Of a stretch of DNA of 64,000 nt, positions 18,291-52,566 are shown one piece after another (the stretch's first letter is position 1; each line of letters opens with the position of its first letter). The DNA lies in IMG/VR virus record IMGVR_UViG_3300003322_001075, positions 6,552 to 70,551 of that record; one strand, 5' to 3'. The translations under genes were made by a program, and so were the position numbers. This DNA is from a virus. The notes beneath the pieces were generated by a model. That model was not told where the DNA came from. It was given only the letters and a program-made list of their open reading frames with translations, and searched no databases.

Positions 18291-19769
18291 ATGGCAGATT
18301 TAAATGTTGGACAAGCAATAGCTTTAGACACCAAGGCTACGCCTTATTCCGGCTCCCCTATTACTCAGGGATTGAGACTTCGTGAATTCAATCAATTAAA
18401 ACAAGCCGAACTTGAGGCAAGAAAACAGGCCAAAGAACAAAAACGCAGGGATATGCTGGCAAAATTCACCAGTGTTAAGCCTATAAATGGCATTCATCCT
18501 GCTTTTACTCAAGAAAACATAAAACTGGCCAATGAGGCCAACATGATTCTTACTGATCCAACGGCAACACCTGCTGAAAAAGCAATGGCAAAATCAGAAA
18601 TTGCCGGACAAATGATCTTGTACTCCAATTATGGCAAGGAATTGAATGATTTTGGAGCTCATATCCGTAATAGACAGAATCTTTCTTATAAGGGGCTTCC
18701 AGACTTTCTAAACATTAAAAATATTTCCGAGCTACCTGATAAGGTTAACAAATACGATAATGAAGACAGGCTTATTATGTCCGGAGCCTACAATTTTACT
18801 CCTGATGGGCTTCCTTATGTGGAAACACCTTTGAAAAGGCAAAATGTATCGGATGTATTTACCAAAGCTCTTGCCAGGGAAACCGCCCTTTCTGACTACG
18901 ATATAGTTAATAAAACCAAGAATTTTACTGATGTAAAACAGTCATTGGATCAAAACAGGATAAATAATCTGGTTGAAAATCTTGTTGTTGATGATCCTAA
19001 TCTGGCCTACCAGCTTAGATTTGATAATGAACAGTTAACGAAGAAAATTTTAAGGGAAGAAAGGTTAGCAAATCCACGGTTAACCGATGAAGAATTAATG
19101 CTTGAAGTAGATAAGAGACTCGCCAGGGAGATAGGTGGAAAATATTATTCCGATAAATATGGATTAAGAACTAATCCAAAGGATGTGAATATGAGTGGTT
19201 ACACGGTGAATGGTAAGACTTTCAATCCAAGTCTTACTATCCCTGAGCAAAACCTTGATGCTTATCTCAAAGCCGGAGTTATTACTGCTGAAGAAGCAGA
19301 TTATTACAAAACAGCCTTAAAAACAAATCCTGATATTGCAAACCAAGCATTGGACAATCTTCCTGATCTTATTGCGATAGATCCTCCTAACACCGGAACA
19401 TTTACTATTAAAGATGAATCTGGCAAAACTTTTAAAGCGGATAATTTAAAAGCCGTCTATGTTCCTAAAACATCAAATGGTAAGGGTGGACAATGGTTTA
19501 TGATAGGTAACATGCCCGGTCCCAAAGGGAAAAATACTATTGTTACAATTCCTATCAATGAACGTACATATGGGAATATAATTTCTGTATATGGTAAAAT
19601 GGATGAGGATGATATTGAAGGATTATTCAATAAAAGAATGCAGGATGCTGGCATAACTAATGATAAGTTTGATATTAGCCCATTAAAGCCTCAAATTCCA
19701 GCAAAAAAACAAGGCACAGTAATAAAGCGAAAGTATAACCCAAAAACCGGCAAGTTCGAAAATGGATGA
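18291..19769 (+). CDS. putative ejection (internal virion) protein
   Basis: 492 aa with N-terminal coiled coil, coupled to the giant protein. Confidence 0.5.
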   Translation: MADLNVGQAIALDTKATPYSGSPITQGLRLREFNQLKQAELEARKQAKEQKRRDMLAKFTSVKPINGIHPAFTQENIKLANEANMILTDPTATPAEKAMAKSEIAGQMILYSNYGKELNDFGAHIRNRQNLSYKGLPDFLNIKNISELPDKVNKYDNEDRLIMSGAYNFTPDGLPYVETPLKRQNVSDVFTKALARETALSDYDIVNKTKNFTDVKQSLDQNRINNLVENLVVDDPNLAYQLRFDNEQLTKKILREERLANPRLTDEELMLEVDKRLAREIGGKYYSDKYGLRTNPKDVNMSGYTVNGKTFNPSLTIPEQNLDAYLKAGVITAEEADYYKTALKTNPDIANQALDNLPDLIAIDPPNTGTFTIKDESGKTFKADNLKAVYVPKTSNGKGGQWFMIGNMPGPKGKNTIVTIPINERTYGNIISVYGKMDEDDIEGLFNKRMQDAGITNDKFDISPLKPQIPAKKQGTVIKRKYNPKTGKFENG

Positions 19770-22700
19770 GGAATATTTAAAAGCTCTTTTTGAAGAGACT
19801 GAAAAAGACTATGATTTGGGAGGATATGAAAATTTTAAAAATCTCCTTTCTAATGATAGAAAATTCAGAGAGGCATTCTTCTCTGATGCTGGAGAAAAAT
19901 TGTCTCTTGGTAAAGATATAAATGAATTTGAAACCACATTAGGTTTAAAAAAAAATGGCTCTTCAATCTATTCGGAAGGCCCAAGATTTCGTTCGGAATA
20001 TTTGCCTTCGGATACGAAATCGGCTTCTATTTTAAACGCAAAACCTAAAATTCCAACAATCCAGGAAGCGACAACTAAGGCTGCGGCTAAACTTAATACC
20101 GGAGTTCAAGATGCTATCATTCCTGAACCTGAAAAACTTGATTTGCCTAAAAAAAGCCGGGCAGACATGTATACTTATGCCCTAAATCGAAATATTGATC
20201 TTTATAAAAAAGCTGAACAGGAATATAGTCAATATGAGGCATTAGAACAAATGGTAAAAGATTTGGCATCTGGTGACTTATTAGTAGATGAAGCACAAAA
20301 GGCTCAGATTATCGCTGATTATAATGCCGCCTTACCTAAAATTAATGAAATCAAAGATAGAGCACAACAGGCTTACGATAAAGCGGTTTATTTTGATCAG
20401 GCCTTACAGGGAAATCGTAAATTAAGAGCTTTGAATACTGATAGTGATTTCAAAGCTAGGTTTATTGATGTAGGATTAAATCAATTAGGGTCATTGGCAG
20501 GAAACGCCATAGCCGGAACAGCTAGGGTTTATGCAAATACGGTAAGTCCCCATGAACGTGCAAGCTTGGAACAAATACAGCAATTAGCGCAAAAATCAGC
20601 TGATGAACAACAAACAAGAGGCGAGTTCATGTCCCGACTGATGGATGAGAGGGATAACTATGCCAATAAAGAAATATCTGACATTTATAATCAAGCCGGT
20701 GGGGGATACAAAGGACTGAATGCTGCTACAGAGTACGCAGCTAAAAAATTTACAGAAAGCCTTCCTATTACATTGGGTATTATGGGGGCCTCACTGACCG
20801 GTGCAGGAGGGGCAGCAATAGCCAATACTGCCCTTTTTGGAGGTACGGCCAATCAGAAGTACGAATCATTGAAAGATCGTACTGATATGAGTGAAGAAGC
20901 TAAAATTACTAACGCCCTGGGAACTGGTACGGCTGAATTGCTATTTGAGGGTGTTTTGACCTCGGGCATGGGTTCTGTGTATAAGCAGATGATTAAAACC
21001 ATGGGGAAAGAAGCTGCTGCAAAGGAGATAAAGAAAAATATTATTGATTTACTTTCAAATAGCATCAAAAAAACCATGCCGTTATCCGGTGCGGTTATAG
21101 AAGGGTTAGGAGAGGGTGCTACTCAGTTTACTCAGAATTTTATTGATAAGGAAACTGATCCTACTAAGAAGGATATTAATTTGATGGATGGCGTAGTAGA
21201 TGCTATGGCCATCGGGACTGTAGGGGGTGCCGGATTATCTTCGCCAGCCACCGTGGCTCAGGGCGTAGGTTATCTTAATAGATCTGAAACCATCAAAAAA
21301 AATGAGGATTTGATGCAGAAACGAGAGGCGATTAAAAAAGATCTGAATACGGATATTTCAGAATCGACAAAGGACATTCTCTTGAAAAAAGATGCGGAGC
21401 TATTAGAAAAGCAAAATGAATTGGCAATTGAAGACCGCAATATATTAACAAATAAAATGTCGGATTCGGATCGTGAAACTGTGAAGGAATTATATAATCA
21501 ACGAGATGCCATTTTACAGTCTATTAATGAGGTGGAAGATCCGGTAACAAAAGAATCTTTACAAGAAAATTATGATGCAATTTCAAAAGAAATAGATAAT
21601 ATCTACACTAAAGCCGAAACCAATGATATACAACAGCCTGATAACATCACTACAACAGATGCTGGATCAGAACAGATTGAACCAGTTACAGAACAAACAG
21701 CAATTGGAGATGCTGAAGGAACAGGAATCACACCTGAATCAGGCGATACTGGAATACCAGTCGCTGAATCAGAATCCACCACAAGCAATGATATTGCAGG
21801 AACCGAACCAGCAACCACAAATCTAGAATCCACTTCTGCTGAAGATTTAAAGGAGAAATTAGTTAAATCAGGCAAGATTGTTCTTGATAAGTCTGGCAAG
21901 GTTCAAGATGTTAAGCAGAATAGTGGCGCATCGTCTCATTTTTTTCAAGACCTTGTTGCAATTTCAGGCACCGGAGACAAAGAGGAGGCTTTGAAAAAGT
22001 ACCTCAAATATAAAAATGATAAGGGTTCATTTAAAATGAATTTTGCCGATTGGGAAAACAAAATCATGAGGGATTATGGTCGTTCCGGTTACGAGTATGA
22101 TATAAGAACGGTTAAATCTGACGATAAAAACAATCCTCCGCCAACTCCAGATACTTATGCATGGTCGGGAGAGCAGAATGGCAAGCCTGTTATTTATTTT
22201 AATGGCGATTTGTTGGGCCGGAATGTTCCTTTCAAAGATCAAAAGTCAGGGTATATCAAATCTGTCATTGACCCTGAGATTGAAGCTTATAAAGAACAGG
22301 GAAATGAAAAGGCCGTGTCTAAAATGGAGGAATACAAGCGTTTATTTGAAGAAAAGGTCAATTCGAACCGTGATCTTAAACTGCATTTGATCCATAATGA
22401 AATGTATGGCATCATGAATAGTGGTAAGGAAATAACAGTGGACGATATTGATAGGAATTACATAATATCTGTTAATGAAGTTGATCGTCTTAATACTGTT
22501 AATCTTGCAAAAGATTATTTTGGGGAGCCGATGATTTTCACTACCGGAGCACCAGAAGAAATTACTAAATTTCGAAAGCCTGGGAGTGAAGGATATAAGA
22601 GGAATGACCCTTTTACTGGGCAGGAAGGCATTTATTTTTCAAGAGATATCCGTAATCAGGAAAAGTATGGAGGATTTGAAAAGGGAAATAAACCTGGACC

Positions 22701-25700
22701 GGGTAAAGATTTATATTATGTATTCCTAAGATATAAAAATGCGTACCATTTAGATGATCCTCAGGCACAGGCCAAATATCCTATTTCAGATATTCAAAAC
22801 ATTAGCACAGAACAAAGAAAAGCACTTGAGAAATTAGGGTATGATGCTATTATAAAATCATCTGTGGATAGGCCAAAGGAAGAAGTTGTGGTTTTTGAGC
22901 CTGATCAAATTGAAATTATTGGCACTTATAAAAATGGATTAAATGTTGAAAATACAGAAAAAAGTGATAATTTTGAATCTAACCCACAAAACAATGAAAA
23001 TAAAGCAGAATCAATACAGTCAACAAAGGAGTCGTCAAGCGCAGAAGGAAGTAGTCGAAATGCAGAAGCATCCGATGTCGCAAGAAGAATTCGTGGCACA
23101 GGTGAAGAAAGTTCGCAACTCAGTGACCAAGAAATAAAATCCAAAGAAGAATCTGCACTTCAAAAATATGCCAAAGAAAACGGTATTTGGTATGACTCAG
23201 CCATAGAAACATTTGGAGAACCACAAGCAGAAGGCACCGAGTCTTTGGTATACCTTGATGCTGATGGTAAAACTGTGTTTAAAATAAACACTGGCAGATA
23301 TTACAAAACGTGGGCAGATTTTTTTGATGCCATCGAAATAAATAATCAACTTTTCCCAGAAACTAAGTATGAAGTAATTGGATTTACCACTGCCAGGGGT
23401 AAATTTTCGGTTATTGTAAAGCAGCCGTTAATAACTGCCGAAAGAGGTGCAACACGAGAAGAGGTTAAGGCAGATATGGAGAAAAGGGGGTTCAGCCAGA
23501 TCGAGTTTGATGACTACCAAATAAAAGAAAATGGACTAATCATTAAGGATTTACACGGCCAAAACGTTCTTGTATCCAAAGAGGGCAATCTGTTTTACAT
23601 TGATCCGGCTATTTATATAGATCCGGAGTCAAAATATCTTAAAACCTCCAAAAATGACCAAAACTTGGAGAAAGGCGAACTTTCGGAAGCCGAAAAGGCA
23701 AACTTGGAAAATATTTCAGCTGAAACCAATGTAAACTTCAGAGAAATACAGAATGTATACACCAAATATGGTGAGGGAAAACCATTGTCTGAAATTACTA
23801 TCGAAGACTATCAAGAAGCACAAAAAAAGAGAGAAGACAGCAAAGAGCCCCCTGAAGGACCTGAAGATAATAGTGCATCTAAAGAATCGGATGGCAAAAA
23901 ATCAGGGAGAACGAAATCCTATGAGGAGTCAAGGGTTCCGGTAAGTAAGGAATATCGCGATATTGTTAACGACAATAAAGTGTATTACAAAGAGCTGAAT
24001 ATTGCTGACAATGCTCAAAGTGCTATTCAGTACCTGGAATCATTCGGAACCGATAAAGATGGCCTAGAAAAGGCATACGAGGATTTAATCAACGTTTTCC
24101 TGACCAATCCTTATTCAAGCCCTATTAATGGAGTGGCTGCGGAATTGTTATCTGACCGACTATTTCATGAGGCAAATAATGCTTATCTCAACGGTGATAA
24201 TAAAGAGTTTGAGCGCCTGACCGAACAATCCAATAAAATGCGGGAGGCAGCTTTTAAGGCAGCAACAGTAGCCGGGCAGTATAACGCAGCTTTGGGGATC
24301 TTAACAAGATCATCTAATCCTGATGCATTTCTGCTATTCGTTAACCGGGAAGTTGAAAATGAAATACAGGGACCAAATGCCAAGGCAAAAAAAGAAAAGG
24401 TTTCACGCAAGTCCAAAGAGCTTGAAAAGGAACTGGACAAAGTAAAAAAGGAGGTTCTTGACGAGGTAGCCGACACGGTTAAAGAACCGGCTAATAAAAA
24501 GCCTAAAAAACGAAGCAATCTTCAGAATCTCAAGGAACGGGGCCAGAAACGTCAGAAGGATGCTTTGGATAAGCTTAAAAAACTTGGTTATTTGGGATCA
24601 AGTGGCTTAAATAATGAATCTATAGAAGCCATAGGAGAGCTTATTTTAGCACAGATAGAGCTTGGAATTTATAAGGCAGCAACAATTGCAAAGAAAATAT
24701 CTGCACTTACAAATGGAAAGGTTAACTCTGATCACATAAAGGATGTATATGATCAGTATAAATTCGATGTGGATGGGAAGGAATATACGTTAAAGGAATA
24801 TTCTAACAAATTATTTAATGAGGAGTCAGCTGAAGTCAAAGAAAAGGAAATATCTAAACGAATTGATGATTTACTGAAAGATGAAAATCGTAAGGAGCTC
24901 ACTTTGTCTCAGCTTGTCAGACGAAATTTAGAAATTGGGGCCACTGTTGAATCATTGACCGATGCCATAGTAGCTGAGTTCGGATTAGGACAACAGGAAG
25001 CTCAAAGACTATCTGAAAGGGTTTATCAGACCTATAAAAGAAAACTTAGTGAAAAAATAGACAAAGTATTATCCCGGGAACTCGGAATTAAGCCGCTTAA
25101 AAAAATCAATGAGCAGGAGACTTCCGGGCCATACAAGCCAGAAGACAAAACCTTGGGAAGTAAAATCGTTAACCAAATCCTTGCCGGGGCATTGGATAAC
25201 AAAACTTTATCAGATGCTTTCTCCGTAAAATACGGACTTCCGGTTATTACGTCTACTGTGGCTAATAATATCCGTCTTCTGGCACTGAATGCCAAAAACG
25301 CAACTACCACCACCTCCAGGATGAGGGCTAACAAAATTCTTATGCAGTACATTCACCAGAATATGCCGATTAAATTCTGGAGTGTACTTAACAGCGCTTA
25401 TTACATTTCTTTACTTTCCGGGCCTTCAACTGCTGTTGTAAATACATTAGGAAACATTAATGCGCTTATCAATCAGCGATTTGAAAATGGGATTACCTCA
25501 ATTATAGAGGCTGCCCAGGGAAACAAAGCTAATTTGATAAATCCATTATCTTCAGATAAGATCAAGTATGCTATCAGCAATATAAATCAGGGAATCATAC
25601 AAGCGCTTGATATTCTTCAAAATGGTGGCGGAGAAAGCAAATATTACAACCTGAATCAAAAAGGACTGAACAATTTTGATGCAGAGCGCTTGGTTGCTAA

Positions 25701-27474
25701 AAAAAGTGATTTTAAGAACCTTGACCTTGCTAAAGCTCTTAAAACCGCAGCTAAGCTGTGGTATACTATTCCCACACTTGTCAATAGGAATCTTGATGCT
25801 TCGGATGTTATGTTTGATCATCTTAACTTCAACATGGAGGCGGTACGCGAAGTTAGGAAGGACTTATATAAACAAGGACTGCGTGGTAAGGACCTGGAAA
25901 CAGCAACATTTGAGACCGTATATGGAACAAAGGAGATTCAACAGCAAGCGATTAAGGATGCTCAGGTCGAAGCAGCTAAAATTGGTATAGACCCTGCCAA
26001 AGAAAAGAAATTCGTAAAACGTATTGCCTACGAGCTTATTCAACAGAGGCTTAGTGATGAAATTCAACGAGTTTCGAATATACAGGCTAAAGAAAATATT
26101 TATAAGGGTGCTCCAAGAGGGTTTACCGGTTATCTTGCCTCTAAAATTCCTACGATTGCTCTAATTACTCCTTTTGTGAGTACTGTAATGAAAATTGCAG
26201 AGCGAAACATGAACTATATACCTATCTATGGAATAGCCCGTTATGCAGGATACAGCGTCACAGATCTTGCCAGGAAATCAGATTCGATTGACAAAGCATT
26301 TACTGATAAAGGAATTGAGAATGTAAAACGGGAAGGAGAATTAAGGAATAAGCAATTGGCTCAAGTGCTGGCTTCTCATGCTTTGCTTTTTGGGTTGTAT
26401 GCCCTTTCTAAAGTGGGTTTTGATGATGACGATGACCCAAAAACGCCTGATATTCCATTAATTGACATTTCGGGTGGATATGTAGGAATGTCCTATAAGG
26501 ATCGTCAAGATGCAATTAATGATATGCCGGAATATATCATAAGAATTGGCAATTATTCGATGAACTATGAGCAAAATCCGTTACTTGCCATGGTCGCTTT
26601 GCCATTGTCAGTTCCGATGGATTACGAAAGAGCGGGGAAAGATAAAACAAATATGGATTTTCTCTTGGCGTATGCCAAGGCGCTCCCACTGTTCCTTATG
26701 AACCAGACTCCCCTCCAGAATTTCTCGGAGTTTTTCAAGTCTACCCGTGACTATGCAGATCCTTCATCCGAAATAGCGCCTGAACAATACGCAGCGAACC
26801 TGTTAAAATTCGTTATAAAACCTGTTTCGAACATTGTAGCTCCTAATACATACCAGCAGACAGCGGATTATATCAATCCTACAAAATACAACGCTACAGA
26901 CCTTAATGAAGTTCTTTGGAAATCGTTCAATATGGAAAAAATTGGCGGCCTTCATCCTACTTATGACGTTTGGGGAAGAACAGTTGAATTTTATCCCGGT
27001 GAACGTAGGTTGCCGCTACATTATTGGATGAAAAATGCCGGAGATGATGAGATTGACGCCTGGGCTTCAAAAAATGACATTTCAATACCAAGTATAAATC
27101 TCAAACAATTAGTGCTGGATCTGGAAACCTCTAAAAGTCATACGCTGAAAGACTGGGAACAGAAACAAAAGGATAAAGAGATGGATGATATGTCGGACGT
27201 GGGTGATGAAATCGAAGATACTTTAAATTATAAGGTTCTCTCATCTAAAGAATGGCAGGATATGGATCAAACCATCCGCTTTGAGGTATATAATGTCGTG
27301 AAAAATAACTTCCATAAGGTAAAAAATGATGAGAAGGATGCATCTGGACGTCAAATCATCTCAAAACCTTTCTCTCAGATGACAAAAAAAGAAGCCGATG
27401 AACGAATTGAATACTTTTTCAGACAAAAAAGACTTGAGTATATAAACGAACACTATCCGGTTTCAGAAGAATGA
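19762..27474 (+). CDS. giant polyvalent virion/ejection protein with ART-like and protein-kinase-like domains
   Basis: 2570 aa; Gly/Ala membrane-like segment; GEP...G.YFS...GYD.II...EVVVFEPDQI (ART-PolyVal-like, ~22500-22920); GTESLVY..VFK...DLHGQNV...YIDP (Kinase-PolyVal-like, ~23200-23620). Confidence 0.75.
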   Translation: MDEEYLKALFEETEKDYDLGGYENFKNLLSNDRKFREAFFSDAGEKLSLGKDINEFETTLGLKKNGSSIYSEGPRFRSEYLPSDTKSASILNAKPKIPTIQEATTKAAAKLNTGVQDAIIPEPEKLDLPKKSRADMYTYALNRNIDLYKKAEQEYSQYEALEQMVKDLASGDLLVDEAQKAQIIADYNAALPKINEIKDRAQQAYDKAVYFDQALQGNRKLRALNTDSDFKARFIDVGLNQLGSLAGNAIAGTARVYANTVSPHERASLEQIQQLAQKSADEQQTRGEFMSRLMDERDNYANKEISDIYNQAGGGYKGLNAATEYAAKKFTESLPITLGIMGASLTGAGGAAIANTALFGGTANQKYESLKDRTDMSEEAKITNALGTGTAELLFEGVLTSGMGSVYKQMIKTMGKEAAAKEIKKNIIDLLSNSIKKTMPLSGAVIEGLGEGATQFTQNFIDKETDPTKKDINLMDGVVDAMAIGTVGGAGLSSPATVAQGVGYLNRSETIKKNEDLMQKREAIKKDLNTDISESTKDILLKKDAELLEKQNELAIEDRNILTNKMSDSDRETVKELYNQRDAILQSINEVEDPVTKESLQENYDAISKEIDNIYTKAETNDIQQPDNITTTDAGSEQIEPVTEQTAIGDAEGTGITPESGDTGIPVAESESTTSNDIAGTEPATTNLESTSAEDLKEKLVKSGKIVLDKSGKVQDVKQNSGASSHFFQDLVAISGTGDKEEALKKYLKYKNDKGSFKMNFADWENKIMRDYGRSGYEYDIRTVKSDDKNNPPPTPDTYAWSGEQNGKPVIYFNGDLLGRNVPFKDQKSGYIKSVIDPEIEAYKEQGNEKAVSKMEEYKRLFEEKVNSNRDLKLHLIHNEMYGIMNSGKEITVDDIDRNYIISVNEVDRLNTVNLAKDYFGEPMIFTTGAPEEITKFRKPGSEGYKRNDPFTGQEGIYFSRDIRNQEKYGGFEKGNKPGPGKDLYYVFLRYKNAYHLDDPQAQAKYPISDIQNISTEQRKALEKLGYDAIIKSSVDRPKEEVVVFEPDQIEIIGTYKNGLNVENTEKSDNFESNPQNNENKAESIQSTKESSSAEGSSRNAEASDVARRIRGTGEESSQLSDQEIKSKEESALQKYAKENGIWYDSAIETFGEPQAEGTESLVYLDADGKTVFKINTGRYYKTWADFFDAIEINNQLFPETKYEVIGFTTARGKFSVIVKQPLITAERGATREEVKADMEKRGFSQIEFDDYQIKENGLIIKDLHGQNVLVSKEGNLFYIDPAIYIDPESKYLKTSKNDQNLEKGELSEAEKANLENISAETNVNFREIQNVYTKYGEGKPLSEITIEDYQEAQKKREDSKEPPEGPEDNSASKESDGKKSGRTKSYEESRVPVSKEYRDIVNDNKVYYKELNIADNAQSAIQYLESFGTDKDGLEKAYEDLINVFLTNPYSSPINGVAAELLSDRLFHEANNAYLNGDNKEFERLTEQSNKMREAAFKAATVAGQYNAALGILTRSSNPDAFLLFVNREVENEIQGPNAKAKKEKVSRKSKELEKELDKVKKEVLDEVADTVKEPANKKPKKRSNLQNLKERGQKRQKDALDKLKKLGYLGSSGLNNESIEAIGELILAQIELGIYKAATIAKKISALTNGKVNSDHIKDVYDQYKFDVDGKEYTLKEYSNKLFNEESAEVKEKEISKRIDDLLKDENRKELTLSQLVRRNLEIGATVESLTDAIVAEFGLGQQEAQRLSERVYQTYKRKLSEKIDKVLSRELGIKPLKKINEQETSGPYKPEDKTLGSKIVNQILAGALDNKTLSDAFSVKYGLPVITSTVANNIRLLALNAKNATTTTSRMRANKILMQYIHQNMPIKFWSVLNSAYYISLLSGPSTAVVNTLGNINALINQRFENGITSIIEAAQGNKANLINPLSSDKIKYAISNINQGIIQALDILQNGGGESKYYNLNQKGLNNFDAERLVAKKSDFKNLDLAKALKTAAKLWYTIPTLVNRNLDASDVMFDHLNFNMEAVREVRKDLYKQGLRGKDLETATFETVYGTKEIQQQAIKDAQVEAAKIGIDPAKEKKFVKRIAYELIQQRLSDEIQRVSNIQAKENIYKGAPRGFTGYLASKIPTIALITPFVSTVMKIAERNMNYIPIYGIARYAGYSVTDLARKSDSIDKAFTDKGIENVKREGELRNKQLAQVLASHALLFGLYALSKVGFDDDDDPKTPDIPLIDISGGYVGMSYKDRQDAINDMPEYIIRIGNYSMNYEQNPLLAMVALPLSVPMDYERAGKDKTNMDFLLAYAKALPLFLMNQTPLQNFSEFFKSTRDYADPSSEIAPEQYAANLLKFVIKPVSNIVAPNTYQQTADYINPTKYNATDLNEVLWKSFNMEKIGGLHPTYDVWGRTVEFYPGERRLPLHYWMKNAGDDEIDAWASKNDISIPSINLKQLVLDLETSKSHTLKDWEQKQKDKEMDDMSDVGDEIEDTLNYKVLSSKEWQDMDQTIRFEVYNVVKNNFHKVKNDEKDASGRQIISKPFSQMTKKEADERIEYFFRQKRLEYINEHYPVSEE

Positions 27475-38057: not shown

Positions 38058-38518
38058 ATTGCATATTTTTCATTTGAAGCAAATAGTTTGTCGATATCAT
38101 CATATAACGGAATAACGTTATCATAAGCTGCAATATCAAATGTGCTACTTGGCTCTTCAATAATATTCTTAGCTAAGAACTTATTTAGTTCTGAAATAAG
38201 CCCATAATTAAACTTGGGCTCTTTAAAATCACTAAGCTCATAGTTAATACTGTCATGAAAAACTTTAATATCCAAGGTTCTTTGAATATCCAAAAGAGTA
38301 TCTGTTGTAAAATTATGGGCTCCACTGACCCACTTAGATATAACGGAAGGCTCTTGATCAATTACAGCGGCATAATTAATCTTTGTCCCATATTTGAATG
38401 CTATAGCATCTTCGATTTTAGATGCTAATAACATTCTAAACTCAGTTTTGCCATAAGAGGCTTTAGCTCTTTTAATAGCATTTTGCAACGTTTTACTACT
38501 CCTCTTCTTCATCGTCAT
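38054..38518 (-). CDS. HigA-like HTH antitoxin with C-terminal extension
   Basis: Xre HTH (PSVISKWVSG.HNFT.DTL..I...L) plus ~60-aa C-terminal tail. Confidence 0.75.
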   Translation of the reverse strand: MTMKKRSSKTLQNAIKRAKASYGKTEFRMLLASKIEDAIAFKYGTKINYAAVIDQEPSVISKWVSGAHNFTTDTLLDIQRTLDIKVFHDSINYELSDFKEPKFNYGLISELNKFLAKNIIEEPSSTFDIAAYDNVIPLYDDIDKLFASNEKYAI

Positions 38519-38996
38519 TAAATATTAAATTACCGTCCAATTCACCATTATTGCTAAGTTTAATTTCTTTATCCTTAATCCTTTTGGTTATTCGGCATGA
38601 AATTTCTATAAGCATATTGGCGAAATAATTTAAATCCCCATCTTCTTGCCAAGCTCTTATATCTTTCCCTTTTGGACCACCACCACCTAGCACAACCGTA
38701 AGGGTTCCATATCTTAAACAATATAATCTAAGATTAGATTCGTCCATATCGTACAATGCACACATTCCGTCTCCGGGGATACCCTCATATTCTTTAAAAT
38801 ATTGGGCTCTAGCGCCATGTTTATTACCAATCAACATCACTCTATTAACAATATCATCAACTTCTTTCTCATAATTGCCCTCATGAGATGATATGAAATC
38901 TTCAAACAAAGTATCTTCTTCTCCGTCTATTATGACGGAATATATCTTTGCTGAATTACCACTAAAGCCTTCTAATTCGACTATTTCAAACTTCAT
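38496..38996 (-). CDS. RelE/HigB-like toxin
   Basis: FK.YEG..GDG.CALYD...LRLYCLRYG...VVLGGGG.K RelE-superfamily pattern; ATG at 38996. Confidence 0.7.
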   Translation of the reverse strand: MKFEIVELEGFSGNSAKIYSVIIDGEEDTLFEDFISSHEGNYEKEVDDIVNRVMLIGNKHGARAQYFKEYEGIPGDGMCALYDMDESNLRLYCLRYGTLTVVLGGGGPKGKDIRAWQEDGDLNYFANMLIEISCRITKRIKDKEIKLSNNGELDGNLIFNDDEEEE

Positions 38997-39009
38997 GGTA
39001 ATTGTGATG

Positions 39010-39053
39010 CAAAGGTAAATAAATATTAGTAATTTCACTTATAAGTGAAATTA
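39010..39053 (-). promoter_or_regulatory. TAC operon promoter with palindromic operator
   Basis: TACCTTTG (39010-39017, -) and perfect 24-bp palindrome TAATTTCACTTATAAGTGAAATTA (39030-39053). Confidence 0.75.
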
Positions 39054-39951: not shown

Positions 39952-40887
39952 TCATGCTGCTCGTTTTAGGTCTTTTCTTTTGATCCTGGAGTCGGAATGC
40001 GCAATTAATAGCTCTATCCTCCCTTTTGAAGTCAAATTTCGGGTATTATATCGAAAAACAAACTCCTGGACGTATTTATCCAGGTGCTTTTTGCTTACGT
40101 TGTGATAGACTCCAATGATTCCCCGCTTGAAAATGGACCAGAAGTTCTCGATCCCGTTTGTGTGAGAATCCTCGACCACGTACACCTTGGCTTGGTGCTT
40201 TACCCGCTTATGAGCATACCAGTATTCCATTCCGTTGTAGCCTACATGGTCATCGGTCATTAACGGAGATCCGGATTTGACAGAACCCATTATAATGGGC
40301 CTAAGAGTGGCGTTAGTCCGGTCAGGTATGACCATGGCCTTAACCTTTCCTCCGCGTTCCAGCAGCCCTAATACCAATGCTTTATCTGTTATATCCGAAT
40401 CCTTCACGTATGTCTTCTTTTTGTTCTTGTGCCGGTTTTTGTTCTTTCCGCCCACCCAAGTTTCATCTACTTCAACCACTCCTTCAAAGGGCTTTTCCTC
40501 CTTTTTGTTAGCTATGGCAAAGTTTGCCCGGATATTGGTCAGCATCAGCCACGCTGTATTCTGGGTCACTTTGATCTGCCTGGCCAGTTCATAGCTCGAT
40601 ATTCCCTTGTTGGACACCAATTCAAGATACTGAGCGATGAACCACTTCTGTAAGGGCAGCTTGGTTCCTTCATAAATAGTGCCCGTCTTGGCATTAAACT
40701 GCCTGCGGCAAGTCCGGCATTTTAACCGATTCCCATCGCTGAATCGGCAAATATTATCACTCTCGCAATGGGGGCATTTGATTCCGTCTCTCCATCTTAT
40801 TTCTTCCAGGTATCTTAAATTCTTATTCTCATCACTGAAAGTTTCCACCACTTCGATGATGCTTGAGTAGTCTTGTATGTTTTTCAT
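39952..40887 (-). mobile_element. tnp: IS1595-family (ISXO2-like) DDE transposase
   Basis: RW..G..CPHC and C..C zinc ribbon, VEVDET.VGG, LMTD, HTN.IENFWS..KRG..G.YH.VS.KHL..Y..EF.FRYN; element ends not identified. Confidence 0.92.
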
Positions 40888-43966: not shown

Positions 43967-44767
43967 TTAGGATAAATCAGGGTTTGCGGAAGTACAACTT
44001 GTATCTGGTAAAACGAAATCGTGTTTTTTAACGTACTGCATGAACGCGTGTAGCTTTTTATTCCATTGTGCGTCAGCAAGTGCATTGTGCTCGTTTTCTT
44101 GCTTAGGGAATAACGGGTGTTTTTTTGAGTCCATAAGCCATGCTTCTAATCGAGTTAGGTCTTCATATTTATTGGCTTGATACATGTACATTTCGTCCAG
44201 CATTTGTTTCAGATCACGGCAGTACTTAGGAAATGCTTTTGGTAGATCCATCATTCTGCCGAACAACCAGCAAAAAGCCACCCAATCGTAGTCTGCGTAG
44301 TAAGCATAAAATTTAGGCTGCACAAATTCAAATTCGCCTCCGTAGGTTCCTGACCTAATAAAATCTTCAACTTCTTCCGCTATTTGCTGGTTTGACTTTC
44401 CGTACAATTGAATGAGTCGCTCAAAGTTTTTATACGTAAAATCATTGCTTATATGATGCAGATTTACCATGTGGCATTTTGCCCACCACAAATCCTTAAA
44501 TATTGGCCTTAAAACATTTTCACGAATCCAGTATTCTTTTGGCTGAGTATTATTCCTATCACCTTGCTCAGTTCTCGGTTGCCAACGATTCCATGCTTCT
44601 TTCAGGTTAAAATCCTTTGAAATGGCGTAGTATTCACGCCCATCCTCGGCAACTATACCGATTGAAATAAGATCTATTGTCGGCTTTGTTTGTCCATATT
44701 TGAAGCCCATGAATGTTTTGTCATGTGGTCCTTCGATAAACTCTGTATCAATGTAATATTTTGTCAT
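43967..44767 (-). CDS. DEDD 3'-5' exoribonuclease (RNase AS-like)
   Basis: YYIDTEF, LISIG.V.EDGREYY, YDWV.F..LFG.M..LP, HNALADA. Confidence 0.85.
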   Translation of the reverse strand: MTKYYIDTEFIEGPHDKTFMGFKYGQTKPTIDLISIGIVAEDGREYYAISKDFNLKEAWNRWQPRTEQGDRNNTQPKEYWIRENVLRPIFKDLWWAKCHMVNLHHISNDFTYKNFERLIQLYGKSNQQIAEEVEDFIRSGTYGGEFEFVQPKFYAYYADYDWVAFCWLFGRMMDLPKAFPKYCRDLKQMLDEMYMYQANKYEDLTRLEAWLMDSKKHPLFPKQENEHNALADAQWNKKLHAFMQYVKKHDFVLPDTSCTSANPDLS

Positions 44768-49064: not shown

Positions 49065-49532
49065 ATGGGACAGACAAAAGCACAAAGAGAAGCCAAAGAA
49101 GAGGCTCAGAAAAGATCAGAAGCAGCGAAAGCCGGATGGGCTGTTCGTAGAAACAGGCAATTTGCTCAGAAGGCATCCAAAACAGTTGGAATTTTAGTTC
49201 AGGGATCAAAAGTCAAGGTTGCAATGAACACAGATCGAAGTTCGGACTATGTTGTGGTTGGGGAGCAAATACTGCCTTCAGGTGTTATTACGTCACAATC
49301 AGAGAAAAATGATCAATTGTCTTTGGCGCTTGGAGCATCTTTAGCAAGCCTGTTGCATCGATTAACTGAAAAGCTTGGCGGAGGAGTGTCAATTTCGAAT
49401 CAGGAGGATGCAAAAGAACCAGGATTCTCAAGCCTCCAAATATTGGGATCATTACAACGTACTCAAATCAACCTTGAAACATGTCAGAACCTTGTAGATC
49501 GTATTGACAACCTGCAAAAGGAAATGTTGTAA
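49065..49532 (+). CDS. hypothetical protein
   Basis: 155 aa, basic N-terminus, C-terminal coiled coil. Confidence 0.6.
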   Translation: MGQTKAQREAKEEAQKRSEAAKAGWAVRRNRQFAQKASKTVGILVQGSKVKVAMNTDRSSDYVVVGEQILPSGVITSQSEKNDQLSLALGASLASLLHRLTEKLGGGVSISNQEDAKEPGFSSLQILGSLQRTQINLETCQNLVDRIDNLQKEML

Positions 49533-49547
49533 TGGGTGGAGAAGCAT

Positions 49548-50942
49548 AAAATATTGGGGCGTGGTCCGCTGGAATTTGCGAGAAAGTCTATTGTGCATAC
49601 TACCCTAAGTAATACTGGCCTAAACCACAGCTATTCAATTAGCAGCCCCTTCGTTCTTTAAAATATTGTTATCGCATTGCTTGGGTTGGCCGTCTAGCAG
49701 AACTCGGATCACGGCTCCACAAATGTGGGATAGGCACGGACCTGTCACCGAGGTGCGGTAACAAAAAATATTGTTGGGATAACGCAGTGGGTGTAAGGGA
49801 CGGCCTTCTAAACCGTGAGTCTTACTTCCTCGCTGTCTTCAACTGACAGGATGGATCTGTTAAATCTTAATCCCGTAGACGAAGATATTCCCAACATCAT
49901 TCTTTAAAATATTCCCTGCTGGAAGTCGAACAGAGGTTGAACTCAGCTATTACAGGAGCGTTGTTTGACGGAAGGTGAGTAGAATGCCAGCCCAGCCATC
50001 GCTGGTGGTCTGAGAAAAGCTCAGCCAACTCATAGATTTGGTAGTTTCAAGCGTTAAGCAGACAATATCCGGAACTGTAAGCCGGACAGGGATAAAAATA
50101 TTAAGCGTCTGGGTAATAACCTGCTAAAAGAAAGTACTAGTACAGGCTCTCCTAATCGCGTGACTCGCGACCGCGTAAAGAGAAGGCGCTTAAAATATTG
50201 AGATAGTGTGTTAATAGTACTGAGGCGGATAAAGGATGCCGTCCATCCAACACTATTAATGCAGATTGAGTGTCAGCATGCAAGGCATTTGATTCAGATT
50301 AAGAGTTGGATTCAAGCTGCTATCTCATAAAATATTGACTGAAAACTATTCCTAGTCACTAGCGCAGGGAGGATCGTTAGAATCCTGTAATATTCTGGGT
50401 GGTATGAGAATGTTCTAATCATGCTTTCAGTCATCCCCTTCGGGGGAAAGAAACAGCGGTAGCCCGAAAGGGCATTCCTGAGTAAATGCGCTCAGGAGTA
50501 CGGCAAGCCGCACCGGTCGGTCTGAAATATGGCCGACCTTTAAAATACAATCAGCCACAAGAGGATTGGCGAGATAGTTTGCGCAGACGATTCCCGCAAG
50601 TGGCACTCATTAAACATTGAAGTGAGTATAAATAAAGATACTAATCCTGAATAGAAGAGGATGATATATTAGAAGCTGTTAGTAATAGTAATATTGCGAA
50701 CAATGTTCATAGTTTACTGTGGATAATGGGTATATCGGAGTAATCCTAGATGTGTTGCCCTAAATGAGAAATGGGAGTATCGGAGAGATTTTCACTCACA
50801 ACACAAATGAGTTCTCAGCAAGTAGTTAGGTTGGAGGCTTAAACGTGCTATATTAACTACATGACCCTACTCTTATAGGATAATAAGACAAGAGGGTGCT
50901 AAACGAAGGTAAGTGGGTCGCCTAAGAGCCCGCAAATTTCAA
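49548..50942 (+). ncRNA. array of about nine structured ncRNAs
   Basis: No ORF; seven AAAATAT leaders each followed by a unit whose ends base-pair, several via G-U on the + strand. Confidence 0.8.
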
Positions 50943-50960
50943 TTTTTCATAGGTTGGAAA

Positions 50961-50990
50961 GGGTGGTAGCAATACTGCCCTTTTTTATTT
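50961..50990 (+). terminator. rho-independent terminator ending the ncRNA array
   Basis: GGGTGGTA-GCAA-TACTGCCC-TTTTTT. Confidence 0.85.
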
Positions 50991-51015
50991 GCACAGAAAA
51001 TTCTACATTTGAAGC

Positions 51016-51574
51016 ATGACACGTAAATTTGACCTCTTAACCCCCGCTGAGCAGGAAATGCTCCTTTTTTGTTGTGCTTACTTATCCTGGTGTGATATCA
51101 AAGTTGGGTTAACAATAAGTGAACACCAGCTGGATACAGCCCTTGAATACGGATCAGAGTACGAAATAACAGTAACAGACTATGCCGCAGTGGACACAGT
51201 ATTTCCAACCCTTGGGGAACCTAAGCCGCCAAAACGTTAAAAGCGTTTGGATATTCTTTACCGGTATTGCCCTCTTGTTCTTCCGGCATAGTTTGGCGCT
51301 CTACCTTTCAGGTGGGGATGAAGGAGTATATTGGGGCAACATCTACACGATCGACATGTGTGTAATGGCCCTGATGGCTCATGCGTTCTTTACGGGTATC
51401 CTTATCATAGACTTTCTTACTGAAACATTTGCCTGGTTTTGCTGGTCGGACCTGGCTGACAGAATAGTTTTCCACAACACAAATTTCACAAAAGAAGATT
51501 TATTGTATATCTTTATTGCGGCCATAACGCTGGGGTACAAAATCTACAAATGGAATAAGCCTAAGAAATCATGA
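51016..51574 (+). CDS. small protein (51016-51240) and multi-TM protein (51182-51574)
   Basis: Start of the lysis operon after TACATTTG. Confidence 0.5.
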
Positions 51575-51906
51575 AAGAACCTACCTTAAAGGACATATAC
51601 GATGAAGTTAAGCTCTTGGTAGTTGCTGTTACAGGTGACGAAAAAATGGGCATCAAAGGTACCAATCAACGCCTTGAAGAAACCCAGCAGCAGGTAAACG
51701 GGCACGAAAAACGGATTACAAAGCTTGAGGCTGAAAGTAAGAAATTTAAGGTTATGTCGTTTGTAAAGGGAATAGGAGTAGGGGCCACCAGCGCAAGTTC
51801 TGCATTTGCCATTGGAAGCGGGAAAGCCGGGGCTGCAATTGCTAAGATTGCCACGGCCTTAGGTGCAATAATTTTTGTTTGTTATTGTTTAATGCTTATA
51901 CTATGA
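51571..51906 (+). CDS. coiled-coil plus TM protein (holin-associated)
   Basis: HEKRITKLE coiled coil and C-terminal TM helix. Confidence 0.5.
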   Translation: MKEPTLKDIYDEVKLLVVAVTGDEKMGIKGTNQRLEETQQQVNGHEKRITKLEAESKKFKVMSFVKGIGVGATSASSAFAIGSGKAGAAIAKIATALGAIIFVCYCLMLIL

Positions 51907-52110: not shown

Positions 52111-52566
52111 ATGAAAGTAACCAAAATATCTCAAGCTGGTATAGATCTGATTCTTTCATTTGAGGGGTTCGAACCGAGGCCATATCTATGTTCCGCTGGT
52201 GTTCCTACCATAGGATTTGGCACTACAAGATACCCGGATGGTCGAAAGGTAAGTATTACAGACCCGGGAATAACAAGAGCAAAAGCCGTTGAGTTTTTTA
52301 AGCATGACCTGGAATATTTTGAAAAAAAAGTGGATGCTTTTTGCCGGGACGACATAAACCAAGCTAATTTTGATGCACTTGTTTCTTTCTGCTATAACTG
52401 CGGAGAAAATAACCTTAAAAGTTCCACCCTTCTGAAAAAGGTAAATGCCAATCCTAAAGATCCCGCTATTCGTGAAGAATTTGTTAAATGGACCCGGGCT
52501 AACGGTAAAGTTGTAAAAGGGCTTGAGCGAAGAAGAATAGCCGAAAGTAGCCTGTATTTTTCATGA
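52111..52566 (+). CDS. GH24 phage lysozyme (endolysin)
   Basis: FEG....Y.C.AGVPTIG.G.T, FDALVSF.YN.G, STLL.K.N, GL.RRR.AE. Confidence 0.95.
   Translation: MKVTKISQAGIDLILSFEGFEPRPYLCSAGVPTIGFGTTRYPDGRKVSITDPGITRAKAVEFFKHDLEYFEKKVDAFCRDDINQANFDALVSFCYNCGENNLKSSTLLKKVNANPKDPAIREEFVKWTRANGKVVKGLERRRIAESSLYFS

What the first reader, a model, noticed from the sequence alone, without database searches (positions are those of the whole stretch)
49548..50990. Array of diverse structured ncRNAs punctuated by AAAATAT, like a tRNA operon without tRNAs
Seen: AAAATAT at 49548, 49660, 49765, 49906, 50095, 50192 and 50329, each followed by a unit whose ends pair. The units are 49556-49649 GGGGC/GCCCC; 49667-49763 TGTTATCGCAT/GTGCGGTAACA; 49772-49896 TGTTGGGA/TCCCAACA; 49913-50092 TCCCTG/CAGGGA; 50102-50192 TAAGCGTCT/AGGCGCTTA; 50199-50327 TGAGATAG/CTATCTCA; 50336-50433 TGACTGAAA/TTTCAGTCA. 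A hairpin-dense block (50434-50604), a 325-nt unit after TAAACAT and a terminator follow. Units are 90-325 nt, multibranched and unrelated in sequence. G-U pairs support RNA on the + strand, and most have a hairpin abutting the 3' closing strand like a T-arm. Inference: one transcript cut by RNase P/Z/E-type processing into a library of distinct RNAs, such as tRNA decoys, RNA anti-defence factors or guides. This is the best candidate for an undescribed system.
Basis: partly seen in the sequence, partly recalled or inferred. Interest (0 to 1): 0.9.

Follow-up and report, generated by a model that had tools for sequence, protein, structure and literature searches.

The report
Phage operon of stem-closed RNAs
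A crAss-like phage carries a 1.45-kb gene-free stretch that looks like a transfer-RNA or ribosomal-RNA operon in its layout but holds seven or more unrelated folded RNAs of unknown function instead.

Summary
AAAATAT (always AAAATATT) stands seven times on the + strand in 49548-50335. Each copy is followed in register by a unit whose two ends pair. Terminal stems sum to 50 against 20.7±3.6 for random segments, reached in 0 of 3000 draws. The pairing collapses when the frame is shifted, and G-U pairs favour the + strand. No unit is a tRNA, a tmRNA or an Rfam family. The units share no sequence.

Two points need correcting:
- TAAACAT is not punctuation. It is the conserved loop of a hairpin that starts the last unit. 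That unit belongs to a widespread, uncatalogued phage RNA family, and its phi14:2 homologue is very highly transcribed.
- Thermodynamic support is modest. Two of the seven units fold no better than shuffles.

New here:
- The spacer resembles the flanks of real tRNA genes in related phages.
- One junction matches the Bacteroidota rrn boxA element at 14 of 16 positions.

The best reading is an rrn/tRNA-operon-like stable-RNA operon without tRNAs. Processing is inferred, because no relatives and no RNA data were found. This scan's earlier notes report similar cassette arrays on other phage DNA.

The parts
49548..49555 (+). Spacer motif copy 1 (AAAATATT), 16 nt after the stop codon of ORF 49065-49532
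49556..49649 (+). U1, closed by GGGGC/GCCCC; a UUCAAU-loop hairpin sits next to the 3' strand; MFE z -0.4
49653..49668 (+). Junction U1/U2, GTTCTTTAAAATATTG: matches 14 of 16 positions of the Bacteroidota rrn boxA element GTTCTTTGACATATTG; includes motif copy 2 (49660-49667)
   Evidence: the only match with <=2 mismatches in the window; 0.11 expected
49667..49763 (+). U2, 12-bp closing stem with three G-U pairs, then a further 5 bp and three hairpins (four-way junction); z -3.0
49765..49772 (+). Spacer motif copy 3
49772..49896 (+). U3, closed by TGTTGGGA/TCCCAACA; z -2.5
49899..49914 (+). Junction U3/U4, ATTCTTTAAAATATTC (12 of 16 to rrn boxA, counted by eye); includes motif copy 4 (49906-49913)
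49913..50092 (+). U4, 182-nt multibranch unit closed by TCCCTG/CAGGGA; z -1.9
50095..50102 (+). Spacer motif copy 5
50102..50192 (+). U5, closed by (T)AAGCGTCT/AGGCGCTT(A); its last base is the first A of the next motif; z 0.0
50192..50199 (+). Spacer motif copy 6
50199..50327 (+). U6, 10-bp closing stem with two G-U pairs; z -2.2
50329..50336 (+). Spacer motif copy 7
50336..50433 (+). U7, closed by TGACTGAAA/TTTCAGTCA; z -1.1
50434..50603 (+). Hairpin block: a UUCG-loop hairpin (50434-50447), a three-way module with a GAAA-loop hairpin (about 50456-50511), an 8-bp GC-rich hairpin (50515-50538) followed by TTTAAAATAC (a degenerate motif), and a small module closed by GCCAC/GTGGC (50553-50602); z -4.4
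50604..50628 (+). P1 hairpin of the last RNA: stem ACTCA/TGAGT around the conserved loop TTAAACATTGAAG
   Evidence: the stem covaries among 60 homologue contexts
50611..50902 (+). Conserved core of the widespread uncatalogued phage RNA family (homologue of the abundant phi14:2 g004-g005 transcript), with the TGTGTTG/CAACACA helix and the TGAGAA/TTCTCA pseudoknot
50961..50987 (+). Intrinsic terminator (GGGTGGTA-GCAA-TACTGCCC followed by a T run) that ends the non-coding unit

Best explanation
The stretch 49533-50990 is one untranslated + strand transcription unit built like a stable-RNA (tRNA or rRNA) operon. It is read through from the small-ORF operon upstream and ends at the single terminator.

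It encodes at least seven unrelated RNA modules of 90-182 nt, each shut by its own end helix. A hairpin block follows, and then a member of a widespread phage RNA family. Every module is headed by the same single-stranded A/U-rich leader, AAAAUAU, followed by a U that opens the helix with a U-A pair. The motif always abuts the 5' strand of the helix. Its distance from the preceding 3' strand varies from 0 to 10 nt, so the motif belongs to the module downstream of it.

The leader is the kind of flank that precedes real tRNA genes in related phages. In two junctions it extends into a near copy of the host-phylum rrn boxA element. The most likely mechanism has two parts:
- Host stable-RNA machinery keeps RNA polymerase going on the untranslated RNA through a Nus/boxA-type signal.
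- The precursor is cut in or at the A/U-rich linkers by an endonuclease of RNase P, E/G or Z type. Exonucleases then trim to the end helices and leave a set of discrete, nuclease-resistant RNAs.

Shown: the motif, the in-register helices, the strand, the absence of known families, the flank and boxA resemblance, and the membership and expression of the last RNA's family. Inferred: co-transcription, cleavage, the enzymes involved, and any function of the released RNAs.
For: - Motif cluster and in-register end helices.
- G-U asymmetry favours the + strand (59 pairs against 49). Summed MFE of U1-U7 is -242.6 on the + strand against -211.4 on the - strand.
- No ORF of 60 aa or more on the + strand in the gap. 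No sigma-70-type promoter inside U1-U7, and one + strand terminator after the array, at about 50961-50987.
- tRNA flanks in 97 loci of phages that carry the same last-unit RNA: in 111 distinct tRNAs, A stands at -4 in 65%, A at -2 in 67% and T at -1 in 61%, and the trailer positions +1 to +3 are A in 60-77%.
- AAAATAT scores 2.6-2.75 bits on that matrix in 6 of 7 units, the 98th percentile of the window. The trailers of 4 of 7 units score at or above the 96th percentile.
- The 8 nt before the P1 hairpin of 60 homologues of the last RNA score like tRNA leaders (0.98 against 1.17; random positions -1.21±1.91).
- rrn boxA: GTTCTTTGACATATTG, or 1-mismatch variants of it, lies 86-249 nt upstream of the 23S marker in 11 of 30 fetched Bacteroidota loci. 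Leader and spacer copies flank the 16S in 3 further operons.
- Junction 49653-49668 matches that element at 14 of 16 positions. It is the only match with <=2 mismatches in the window (0.11 expected).
- 1-mismatch boxA copies lie inside tRNA arrays of two phages with the same RNA family, L061 and L285.
- The phi14:2 homologue of the last unit lies in the g004-g005 junction. The preprint (passages seen) reports that junction as transcribed above most protein-coding genes, early and persistently.
Against: - There are no expression data and no homologue of U1-U7 or the hairpin block, so neither covariation nor processed ends could be tested.
- U1 and U5 fold no better than shuffles. Out-of-register windows are not significantly structured (p=0.10).
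- The flank matrix carries little information (under 3 bits), and A/U-rich intergenic composition inflates its scores.
- Only 2 of 7 junctions carry the U-rich half of boxA. The first junction, where an antiterminator would be expected, lacks it.
- The whole-window chance of one boxA match with <=2 mismatches is about 0.1 (10 of 100 shuffles).
- The end helices lack a 3' CCA and a T-loop, so RNase P recognition is not evident. At 6-12 bp they are too short for RNase III.
Confidence: 0.45

Rival explanations
1. The region is one large multi-domain RNA that is never cut. The conserved last unit would be its core, and U1-U7 would be lineage-specific peripheral domains joined by flexible A-rich linkers. 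This would resemble large ornate phage-associated RNAs whose variable half accompanies a conserved half.
For: - There is a single terminator and no internal promoter-like or terminator-like signal within U1-U7.
- Homologues of the last unit vary from 248 to 498 nt through inserted hairpins.
- The phi14:2 homologue sits in a 685-nt non-coding stretch.
- Domains closed by their own helices are typical of large RNAs (general knowledge).
Against: - Seven identical 8-nt linkers suggest repeated recognition more than unique tertiary roles.
- None of the 97 other loci that hold the family has homologues of U1-U7, so these units are not part of that RNA's conserved architecture.
- The motif resembles tRNA flanks, which are processing contexts.
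Confidence: 0.2
2. The array is a sponge or decoy. Rigid helices display seven single-stranded AAAAUAUU(G) sites, which titrate a host or phage RNA-binding protein or nuclease that recognises this word. NusB/NusE is one candidate, given the boxA likeness. An A/U-specific endoribonuclease of a defence system is another. Here the intervening modules matter only as spacers.
For: - Only the linker is conserved, and the modules share nothing.
- The linker is similar to the invariant GACATATTG half of the rrn boxA element at 7 of 9 positions (counted by eye).
- Multi-site protein sponges such as CsrB/RsmZ have this logic (recalled, not checked here).
Against: - Mere spacers would not need perfect 6-12-bp end helices in exact register with the motif.
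- No binding partner is identified.
- The motif is not exposed in hairpin loops, as it is in known sponges.
Confidence: 0.12
3. The region holds seven independent small genes. AAAATATT would be, or would overlap, a short initiator or promoter for a phage or modified host polymerase. The repeated word could also serve as a recombination handle for shuffling cassettes, as with the promoter-early stem-loop (PeSL) cassettes of T4-type phages.
For: - The motif is fixed relative to the 5' end of each module but not to the preceding 3' end.
- PeSL cassettes are repeated promoter-plus-stem-loop units that mediate modular shuffling (PMC2839356, abstract seen).
- Earlier notes of this scan report cassette gain and loss in similar arrays elsewhere (unchecked).
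Against: - No sigma-70-like promoter lies in U1-U7.
- The motif is a poor match to the Bacteroidota -7 box TAnnTTTG (consensus recalled).
- The other 13 + strand AAAATATT copies in the window lie mostly inside ORFs and not upstream of genes (ORF positions).
- There are no terminators between units.
- The phi14:2 preprint found no common motif upstream of early transcripts (passage seen).
Confidence: 0.1
4. The feature acts at the DNA level or arose by chance. It could be inverted-repeat elements (MITE-like insertions with a duplicated target), recombination sites, or an origin with repeated AT-rich words.
For: Terminal inverted repeats flanked by a direct repeat are formally what an insertion with target duplication looks like.
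Against: - The terminal repeats all differ.
- G-U pairs, which would be A-C mismatches in the other strand, lengthen the stems by 13 pairs on the + strand and only 3 on the - strand.
- UUCG and GAAA tetraloop hairpins and a bona fide RNA family sit in the same unit.
- Chance is excluded.
Confidence: 0.05

Closest known systems
[quoted passage not shown]
   Same: - Co-directional string of small stable RNAs with paired ends, separated by short A/U-rich spacers.
- The spacer matches the flank consensus of 111 phage tRNA genes.
- Non-tRNA passengers of unknown function occur in such regions.
   Different: - There is no tRNA here at all.
- The units are 90-182 nt, with no T-loop, no anticodon arm and no CCA.
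- The spacer is one invariant 8-mer, whereas tRNA spacers show only a loose consensus.
Bacterial rrn operons: a boxA antitermination element followed by the long-range helices that enclose 16S and 23S rRNA
   Same: - An untranslated operon in which a conserved word precedes the 5' strand of a helix closing each RNA.
- One junction matches 14 of 16 positions of the Bacteroidota element.
- In the one rrn operon examined (G124), the 20-bp helix enclosing the 23S starts inside the element.
- Related phages place the element in their tRNA arrays.
   Different: - Five of seven junctions lack the U-rich half.
- The helices are 6-12 bp, against about 20 bp or more in rrn.
- Nus-factor binding is untested.
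The abundant 'long non-coding RNA' of the g004-g005 junction of Cellulophaga crAss-like phage phi14:2 (Drobysheva et al., bioRxiv 10.1101/2020.03.07.982082; passages seen)
   Same: - The last unit (50604-50902) is its homologue. Window 50737-50828 matches at 77-81% identity, and all conserved blocks are shared.
- Both lie in a crAss-like phage and in the same orientation as the neighbouring small ORFs.
   Different: This covers the last unit only. phi14:2 has no AAAATATT-punctuated array upstream of its copy.
PeSL regulatory cassettes of T4-type phages (PMC2839356, abstract seen)
   Same: A repeated short element with stem-loops that punctuates a hyperplastic region of unrelated cassettes.
   Different: PeSLs are promoter-plus-terminator units flanking ORFs. 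Here there are no ORFs and no promoter or terminator matches.
GOLLD and ROOL large phage-associated RNAs (Rfam families; PMC12286853, search listing and abstract start seen)
   Same: A large ORF-free structured stretch in a phage. Homologues of the last unit sit next to tRNA or tmRNA genes, as GOLLD and ROOL often do.
   Different: No Rfam match even at E<=10. The architecture is modular and punctuated.
ToxI-type antitoxin RNA arrays and CRISPR arrays (features recalled, not checked here)
   Same: A precursor RNA with a repeated recognition word, cut into units.
   Different: ToxI units are identical repeats next to a toxin gene. CRISPR repeats are 24-48 nt. Here the repeat is 8 nt and the units are all different and structured.

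Membership tests
tRNA (RF00005 / ARAGORN) | Cloverleaf with T-loop, D-arm and anticodon arm, detectable by ARAGORN or Infernal | tested here: not met
   0 genes in the window. 0 genes in 49401-51100 with relaxed thresholds, introns allowed and the mitochondrial mode. No RF00005 match at E<=10.
tmRNA (RF00023 / RF04321) | tRNA-like domain plus a tag reading frame, detectable by ARAGORN or Infernal | tested here: not met
   Searches find none. The same tools find tmRNA next to the last-unit family in other phages: 14 of 60 loci by ARAGORN and 11 of 14 loci by Rfam.
Any Rfam 15 family (including GOLLD, ROOL and self-cleaving ribozymes) | Covariance-model match at the gathering score | tested here: not met
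   0 matches in the window at gathering score. At E<=10 there are 5 matches, all at 50869-51078 with E 0.77-7.1.
Uncatalogued phage RNA family of the phi14:2 g004-g005 transcript (last unit only) | Conserved blocks in order: P1 hairpin with loop TAAACATTGA; GATACTA; GATGTGTTG...TGAGAA; CAACACAAATGAGTTCTCAGCAAGTAGTTA; AACTACRTGACCCT; AGGGTGCTAA | tested here: met
   All blocks are present at 50604-50902.
Uncatalogued phage RNA family of the phi14:2 g004-g005 transcript (last unit only) | Helices supported across homologues | tested here: met
   On 34 sequences, 95.0% of cells pair against 36.8-47.8% when partners are slid. 7 of 27 pairs change on both sides, and 0 of 500 shuffles reach the observed score. 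The P1 stem is >=4 bp in 51 of 60 contexts, with arm types AGGT/ACCT, AGTCGT/ACGACT, TGGGT/ACCCA and ACTCG/TGAGT. The mismatched-partner control was weak (57% with >=4 bp) because most share AGGT/ACCT.
rrn-type boxA antitermination element | Sequence match to the host-phylum element (GTTCTTTGACATATTG in Bacteroidota rrn leaders and spacers) | tested here: inconclusive
   One junction matches 14 of 16 positions and one 12 of 16. Five share only the 3' half. The host of this phage is unknown. The only host hint is an IS1595 transposase 44% identical to one in Parapedobacter soli.
rrn-type boxA antitermination element | Binds NusB/NusE and confers resistance to termination | not testable with these tools
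   Needs a binding assay or a reporter assay.
Stable-RNA operon processed by RNase P, Z or E | Discrete mature RNAs with ends at the spacer | not testable with these tools
   No RNA run is listed for this DNA.
Type III toxin-antitoxin RNA array (ToxI-like) | Tandem near-identical repeats next to an endoribonuclease toxin gene | tested here: not met
   The units are unrelated. Pfam finds no family in the four flanking ORFs (49065-49532, 51016-51240, 51182-51574, 51571-51906) and a lysozyme at 52111-52566. PADLOC was not run.

The most novel reading that the evidence does not exclude
This is a new class of phage genetic element: a tRNA operon without tRNAs. One precursor borrows the host's stable-RNA signals, namely a boxA-like word, tRNA-type leaders and trailers, and end helices. 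The host's own maturation enzymes then release a private library of unrelated, nuclease-resistant small RNAs. These cassettes would be gained and lost rapidly, which would explain why none has a relative. They could act as decoys or inhibitors of host RNA-targeting defences or of RNA-binding proteins.
Probability: 0.25. Interest if true: 0.85.

Novelty: new variant of a known kind. Interest (0 to 1): 0.6.

Why it matters
If the modules are released as discrete RNAs, phages of Bacteroidota would carry operons of fast-evolving small structured RNAs that use the host's tRNA and rRNA maturation and antitermination machinery. Phage genome annotation does not currently recognise this category. It would give a handle on what the abundant unexplained non-coding transcripts of crAss-like phages do.

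The invariant 8-nt leader and the end helices make the prediction directly testable, by end mapping and by mutating the motif. The boxA-like junction offers a specific biochemical test, NusB/NusE binding. The array also illustrates a simple grammar, a short word followed by an end helix. With it, similar arrays can be searched for where sequence homology fails.

Tried and rejected
Searches for relatives of the array all came back empty.
- The upstream 155-aa ORF has no relative in viral contigs. It is alone in the 5.8-billion-protein collection.
- The portal protein gave no confirmed relative.
- 80 loci holding lysozyme relatives have no unit homologue. The only neighbouring-ORF hit across the loci then held was the 95-aa ORF against L021 at 45% identity. 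L021 shows no comparable array by ORF map.
- blastn (word size 7, E<0.01) of U1-U7 and the hairpin block found nothing in the first 81 loci, in about 280 loci, in 17 more or in 26 metagenome loci.
- A two-hairpin pattern from the hairpin block found 0 viral contigs.

Other searches:
They were mostly AT-rich giant-virus DNA or tandem repeats. Runs of >=5 motifs there had mean terminal stems of 1.7-5.6 bp. The exceptions were tandem repeats (L193, L194) and L198, which is 16% G+C and mostly coding. No analogue was found, and the scan is not exhaustive.
- 7 of 401 sampled Bacteroidota genomes gave weak hits. The best (E 3e-7) lies inside a large open reading frame of a high-G+C genome and was rejected as spurious.
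- Sequencing runs: no RNA holder is listed. One DNA run holds the stretch and may be its source.
- An rrn-operon duplex search gave an uninterpretable result for the 16S, because the partner fell in a tRNA. Only the 23S helix is used in this report.

Readings rejected:
- Small ORFs in the units. The units do not keep a reading frame, and U3 stops after 3 codons (read).
- A pairing of the P1 loop with a 3' TTCAAT word. It is present in only a few homologues.
- Integron attC-like or CRISPR-like readings (by inspection).

Literature: searches found no paper describing such an array. This is no proof that none exists, because subscription journals are not covered. The supplementary tables of the phi14:2 preprint (transcript levels, primer-extension ends) were closed and could bear on the 5' end of the homologous RNA.
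Full report
CONTEXT. The window is bases 6552-70551 of a 70,551-bp IMG/VR virus record with direct terminal repeats. A 1504-aa ORF matches the crAss muzzle protein family, and a 716-aa ORF matches a portal PHROG. One stretch matches only Cellulophaga phage phi14:2, a member of Crassvirales. This is therefore a small crAss-like phage, probably of a Bacteroidota host. The only host hint is an IS1595 transposase 44% identical to one in Parapedobacter soli. The finding lies in a 1483-nt gap without ORFs (49533-51015). Upstream is a run of small + strand ORFs. Downstream is a + strand block that includes a lysozyme at 52111-52566.

THE OBSERVATION. I measured the best contiguous stem between the first 0-2 nt after a motif and the last 0-12 nt before the next motif.
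- Random segments of the same lengths from the window average 3.4-3.5 bp.
- The six-unit sum is 50 against 20.7±3.6 (maximum 35; 0 of 3000 draws reach 50).
- Moving the frame by 5-30 nt either way drops the seven-unit sum from 59 to 21-31, so the pairing is tied to the motif.
- Counting G-U pairs as the + strand would form them adds 13 pairs over Watson-Crick only. Counting them for the minus strand adds 3.
- Summed folding energy of U1-U7 is -242.6 kcal/mol on the + strand and -211.4 on the - strand. U1, U3 and U5 individually fold slightly better on the minus strand.

The units share no sequence with each other, with the rest of the window or beyond chance at the k-mer level. ARAGORN finds no tRNA or tmRNA, even with relaxed settings. 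Rfam finds nothing at gathering score. At E<=10 it finds only five weak hits over the terminator.

Some results weaken the picture. In-register MFE z-scores are -0.4, -3.0, -2.5, -1.9, 0.0, -2.2 and -1.1. Arbitrary 120-nt windows across the array are not significantly more stable than the surrounding 12 kb (mean z -0.69, n=11, against -0.17, n=86; p=0.10). A global fold of the whole stretch keeps only some of the end helices. The solid signal is therefore the motif plus the in-register end helices. The interior structure adds no exceptional stability. The hairpin block is the exception: z = -4.4, with UUCG and GAAA tetraloop hairpins.

THE LAST UNIT. Window 50737-50828 matches phi14:2 at 77-81% identity, and the alignment extends over all conserved blocks. 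An exact 21-mer from it occurs in at least 80 IMG/VR contigs of 5-306 kb (the cap of the scan). A second word occurs in 26 contigs.

Conservation over 74 full-length flanks delimits an RNA from about 50604 to 50902 in the window. From 61 distinct sequences I aligned the 34 of 333 nt or less. On these, five core helices and a pseudoknot pair in 95.0% of cells, against 36.8-47.8% when partners are slid. Seven of 27 pairs change on both sides, and 0 of 500 shuffles reach the observed covariation score. The sequences were selected on an exact 21-mer that includes one helix strand, which limits the variation that can be seen.

In 51 of 60 distinct homologue contexts, TAAACATTGA is the loop of a hairpin of >=4 bp whose arms vary: AGGT/ACCT, AGTCGT/ACGACT, TGGGT/ACCCA, ACTCG/TGAGT, and in the window ACTCA/TGAGT at 50604-50628. 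The mismatched-partner control for this count was weak, because most homologues share AGGT/ACCT.

In the updated RefSeq record of phi14:2, g004 ends at 2904 and g006 starts at 4602. The homologue, which starts at 2917, therefore lies in the g004-g005 junction. The preprint (passages seen) reports this junction as transcribed above most protein-coding genes, in the rightward direction, from the earliest time point and without later decline, with function unknown. The family sits among stable-RNA genes. Of 60 loci scanned, 31 had at least one tRNA or tmRNA call and 14 had a tmRNA call. Rfam confirmed tmRNA in 11 of the 14 loci I gave it. Earlier notes of this scan describe the same family on other phage DNA.

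WHAT THE SPACER RESEMBLES. The motif always abuts the 5' strand of the next helix (offset 0-1 nt). In six of seven units that helix opens with a U-A pair. The distance from the preceding 3' strand varies from 0 to 10 nt. The motif therefore belongs to the downstream unit.

I ran ARAGORN on the 97 loci that hold the last-unit family and collected the flanks of 111 distinct tRNA genes.
- The leader is A at -4 (65%), A or T at -3, A at -2 (67%) and T at -1 (61%). The trailer starts with A in 60-77% of cases at +1 to +3. Background A and T are 34% each.
- AAAATAT followed by the helix fits both flanks. On the leader matrix, 6 of 7 units score 2.6-2.75 bits, the 98th percentile of all window positions and above the tRNAs' own mean of 1.13.
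- 4 of 7 trailers reach the 96th percentile or more.
- The 8 nt before the P1 hairpin of the 60 family homologues score like tRNA leaders too (0.98; random positions -1.21±1.91; Mann-Whitney p = 5e-17).
- Caveat: the matrix holds under 3 bits, and intergenic DNA is A/T-rich, so this shows consistency and proves nothing.

A BOXA-LIKE JUNCTION. I followed a lead from earlier notes of this scan on other phages and read the rrn operon of the Parapedobacter genome. AGTTCTTCAAAGATATTGA precedes the 16S, and AGTTCTTTGACATATTGG precedes the 23S.
- In a sample of 151 Bacteroidota genomes, 30 loci were fetched. The 11 loci in which an rRNA marker follows the match are those whose 16-mer matches with at most one mismatch. 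All 11 place it 86-249 nt upstream of a 23S marker.
- Three further operons have one copy before the 16S and one before the 23S, with GACATATTG invariant.
- In the one operon examined for this, a 20-bp helix enclosing the 23S starts inside the element.
- The U1/U2 junction, GTTCTTTAAAATATTG at 49653-49668, differs from the consensus at 2 of 16 positions. It is the only match with <=2 mismatches in the window (0.11 expected; 10 of 100 shuffles have at least one).
- The U3/U4 junction reads ATTCTTTAAAATATTC (12 of 16). The other five junctions share only AAAATATT(G) with GACATATTG (7 of 9).
- Two phages that carry the last-unit family have 1-mismatch copies of the rrn element inside their tRNA arrays. 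One lies 12 nt before a tRNA-Ser (L061). The other lies between tRNA-Lys and tRNA-Glu (L285).
- Over all 97 loci, matches with <=2 mismatches (5) were not more frequent than a reversed control word (3).

The boxA reading is a real resemblance for two junctions and weak for the rest.

MECHANISM. Taken together, the stretch has the anatomy of a stable-RNA operon:
- It is untranslated and co-directional with the genes around it.
- It has one terminator and no internal sigma-70-type promoter in U1-U7.
- It has end helices, tRNA-type flanks and a boxA-like word.
- It carries a well-supported, highly expressed type of RNA at its end.

I therefore favour co-transcription followed by endonucleolytic cutting at the linkers and trimming to the end helices, with a possible Nus-type antitermination or folding aid. 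The enzyme cannot be named. The leader fits what is recalled of RNase P leader preferences (U at -1, A at -4) and of the RNase E word RN|WUU (AU|AUU). The helices have no CCA or T-loop, and they are too short for RNase III. A 3'-5' exoribonuclease-like ORF lies 5 kb upstream, but nothing links it to the array. The function of the released RNAs is unknown.

RIVALS. The alternatives are one large uncut RNA, a protein sponge displaying AAAAUAUU, seven separate promoters or PeSL-like cassettes, and DNA-level elements. They are weighed in their own sections of this report.

LIMITS. No relative of U1-U7 or of the hairpin block was found by any route. Covariation and cassette turnover therefore could not be tested. 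No RNA run is listed for this DNA. Earlier notes of this scan describe comparable punctuated arrays of stem-closed RNAs in other phages. They are unchecked leads and do not count as support.

VERDICT. The array is a new variant of a known kind, a stable-RNA operon without tRNAs or rRNAs. It is of clear interest, but the evidence rests on a single sequence.

Noticed in passing
L016 reverse strand 1-1030 (same in L029): A different punctuated array. A word of about 25 nt ending in ACAGCAA[AT]TT is repeated 9 times at 60-240-nt spacing. Between the copies lie pieces that look like tRNA halves: T-arms such as GGTTCGATTCC, and a D-arm TAGCTCAGTTGGTTAGAGCA that follows an acceptor-like hairpin. These may be split or circularly permuted tRNA genes, sited upstream of a tmRNA, two tRNAs and the family RNA.
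   Followed up: no
L055 2893-3362 (phi14:2, about 4032-4501 of KC821624): ARAGORN calls a tmRNA (tag GSSVQKLAMVA) in the second highly transcribed junction of phi14:2 (g005-g006). Rfam does not confirm it at gathering score.
   Followed up: partly
L009, L052, L066, L068, L074, downstream of the family RNA: A conserved small element...GATAAGTG[CT]CCTCACATGAGG..., recurs between the family RNA and the tmRNA start GGGGGTGAC. It may be another uncatalogued small RNA or a processing hairpin.
   Followed up: no
L061 oriented 7377-7392; L285 oriented 3708-3723: One-mismatch copies of the host-type rrn boxA word lie inside phage tRNA arrays. This suggests that these phages borrow rRNA antitermination for their tRNA operons.
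   Followed up: partly
window 39952-40887 (-): An IS1595-family transposase (DDE_Tnp_IS1595 plus zinc ribbon) lies inside the phage genome. Its nearest genomic relative found is 44% identical, in Parapedobacter soli.
   Followed up: partly
window 43967-44767 (-): An ORF with a 3'-5' exoribonuclease Rv2179c-like domain (E 1.8e-8) lies 5 kb upstream of the RNA array, next to a 172-aa ORF without a Pfam match.
   Followed up: no
window 38789-38804 (+): ATTCTTTAAAATATTG, the same 15-16-nt word as the extended array junctions, lies inside a minus-strand ORF (38496-39038). This is probably chance.
   Followed up: partly
L299-L324 (metagenome contigs): 26 contigs carry a P1-type hairpin (ACTC..TAAACATTGA..TGAGT) but not the exact 21-mer of the family core. 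They may hold diverged family members or another RNA that uses the same loop.
   Followed up: no
window 19762-27474 (+): A 2570-aa ORF has a polyvalent-protein kinase domain (PF18762). None of the three largest ORFs contains a DFDxD motif, so the virion RNA polymerase typical of crAss-like phages was not recognised here.
   Followed up: no
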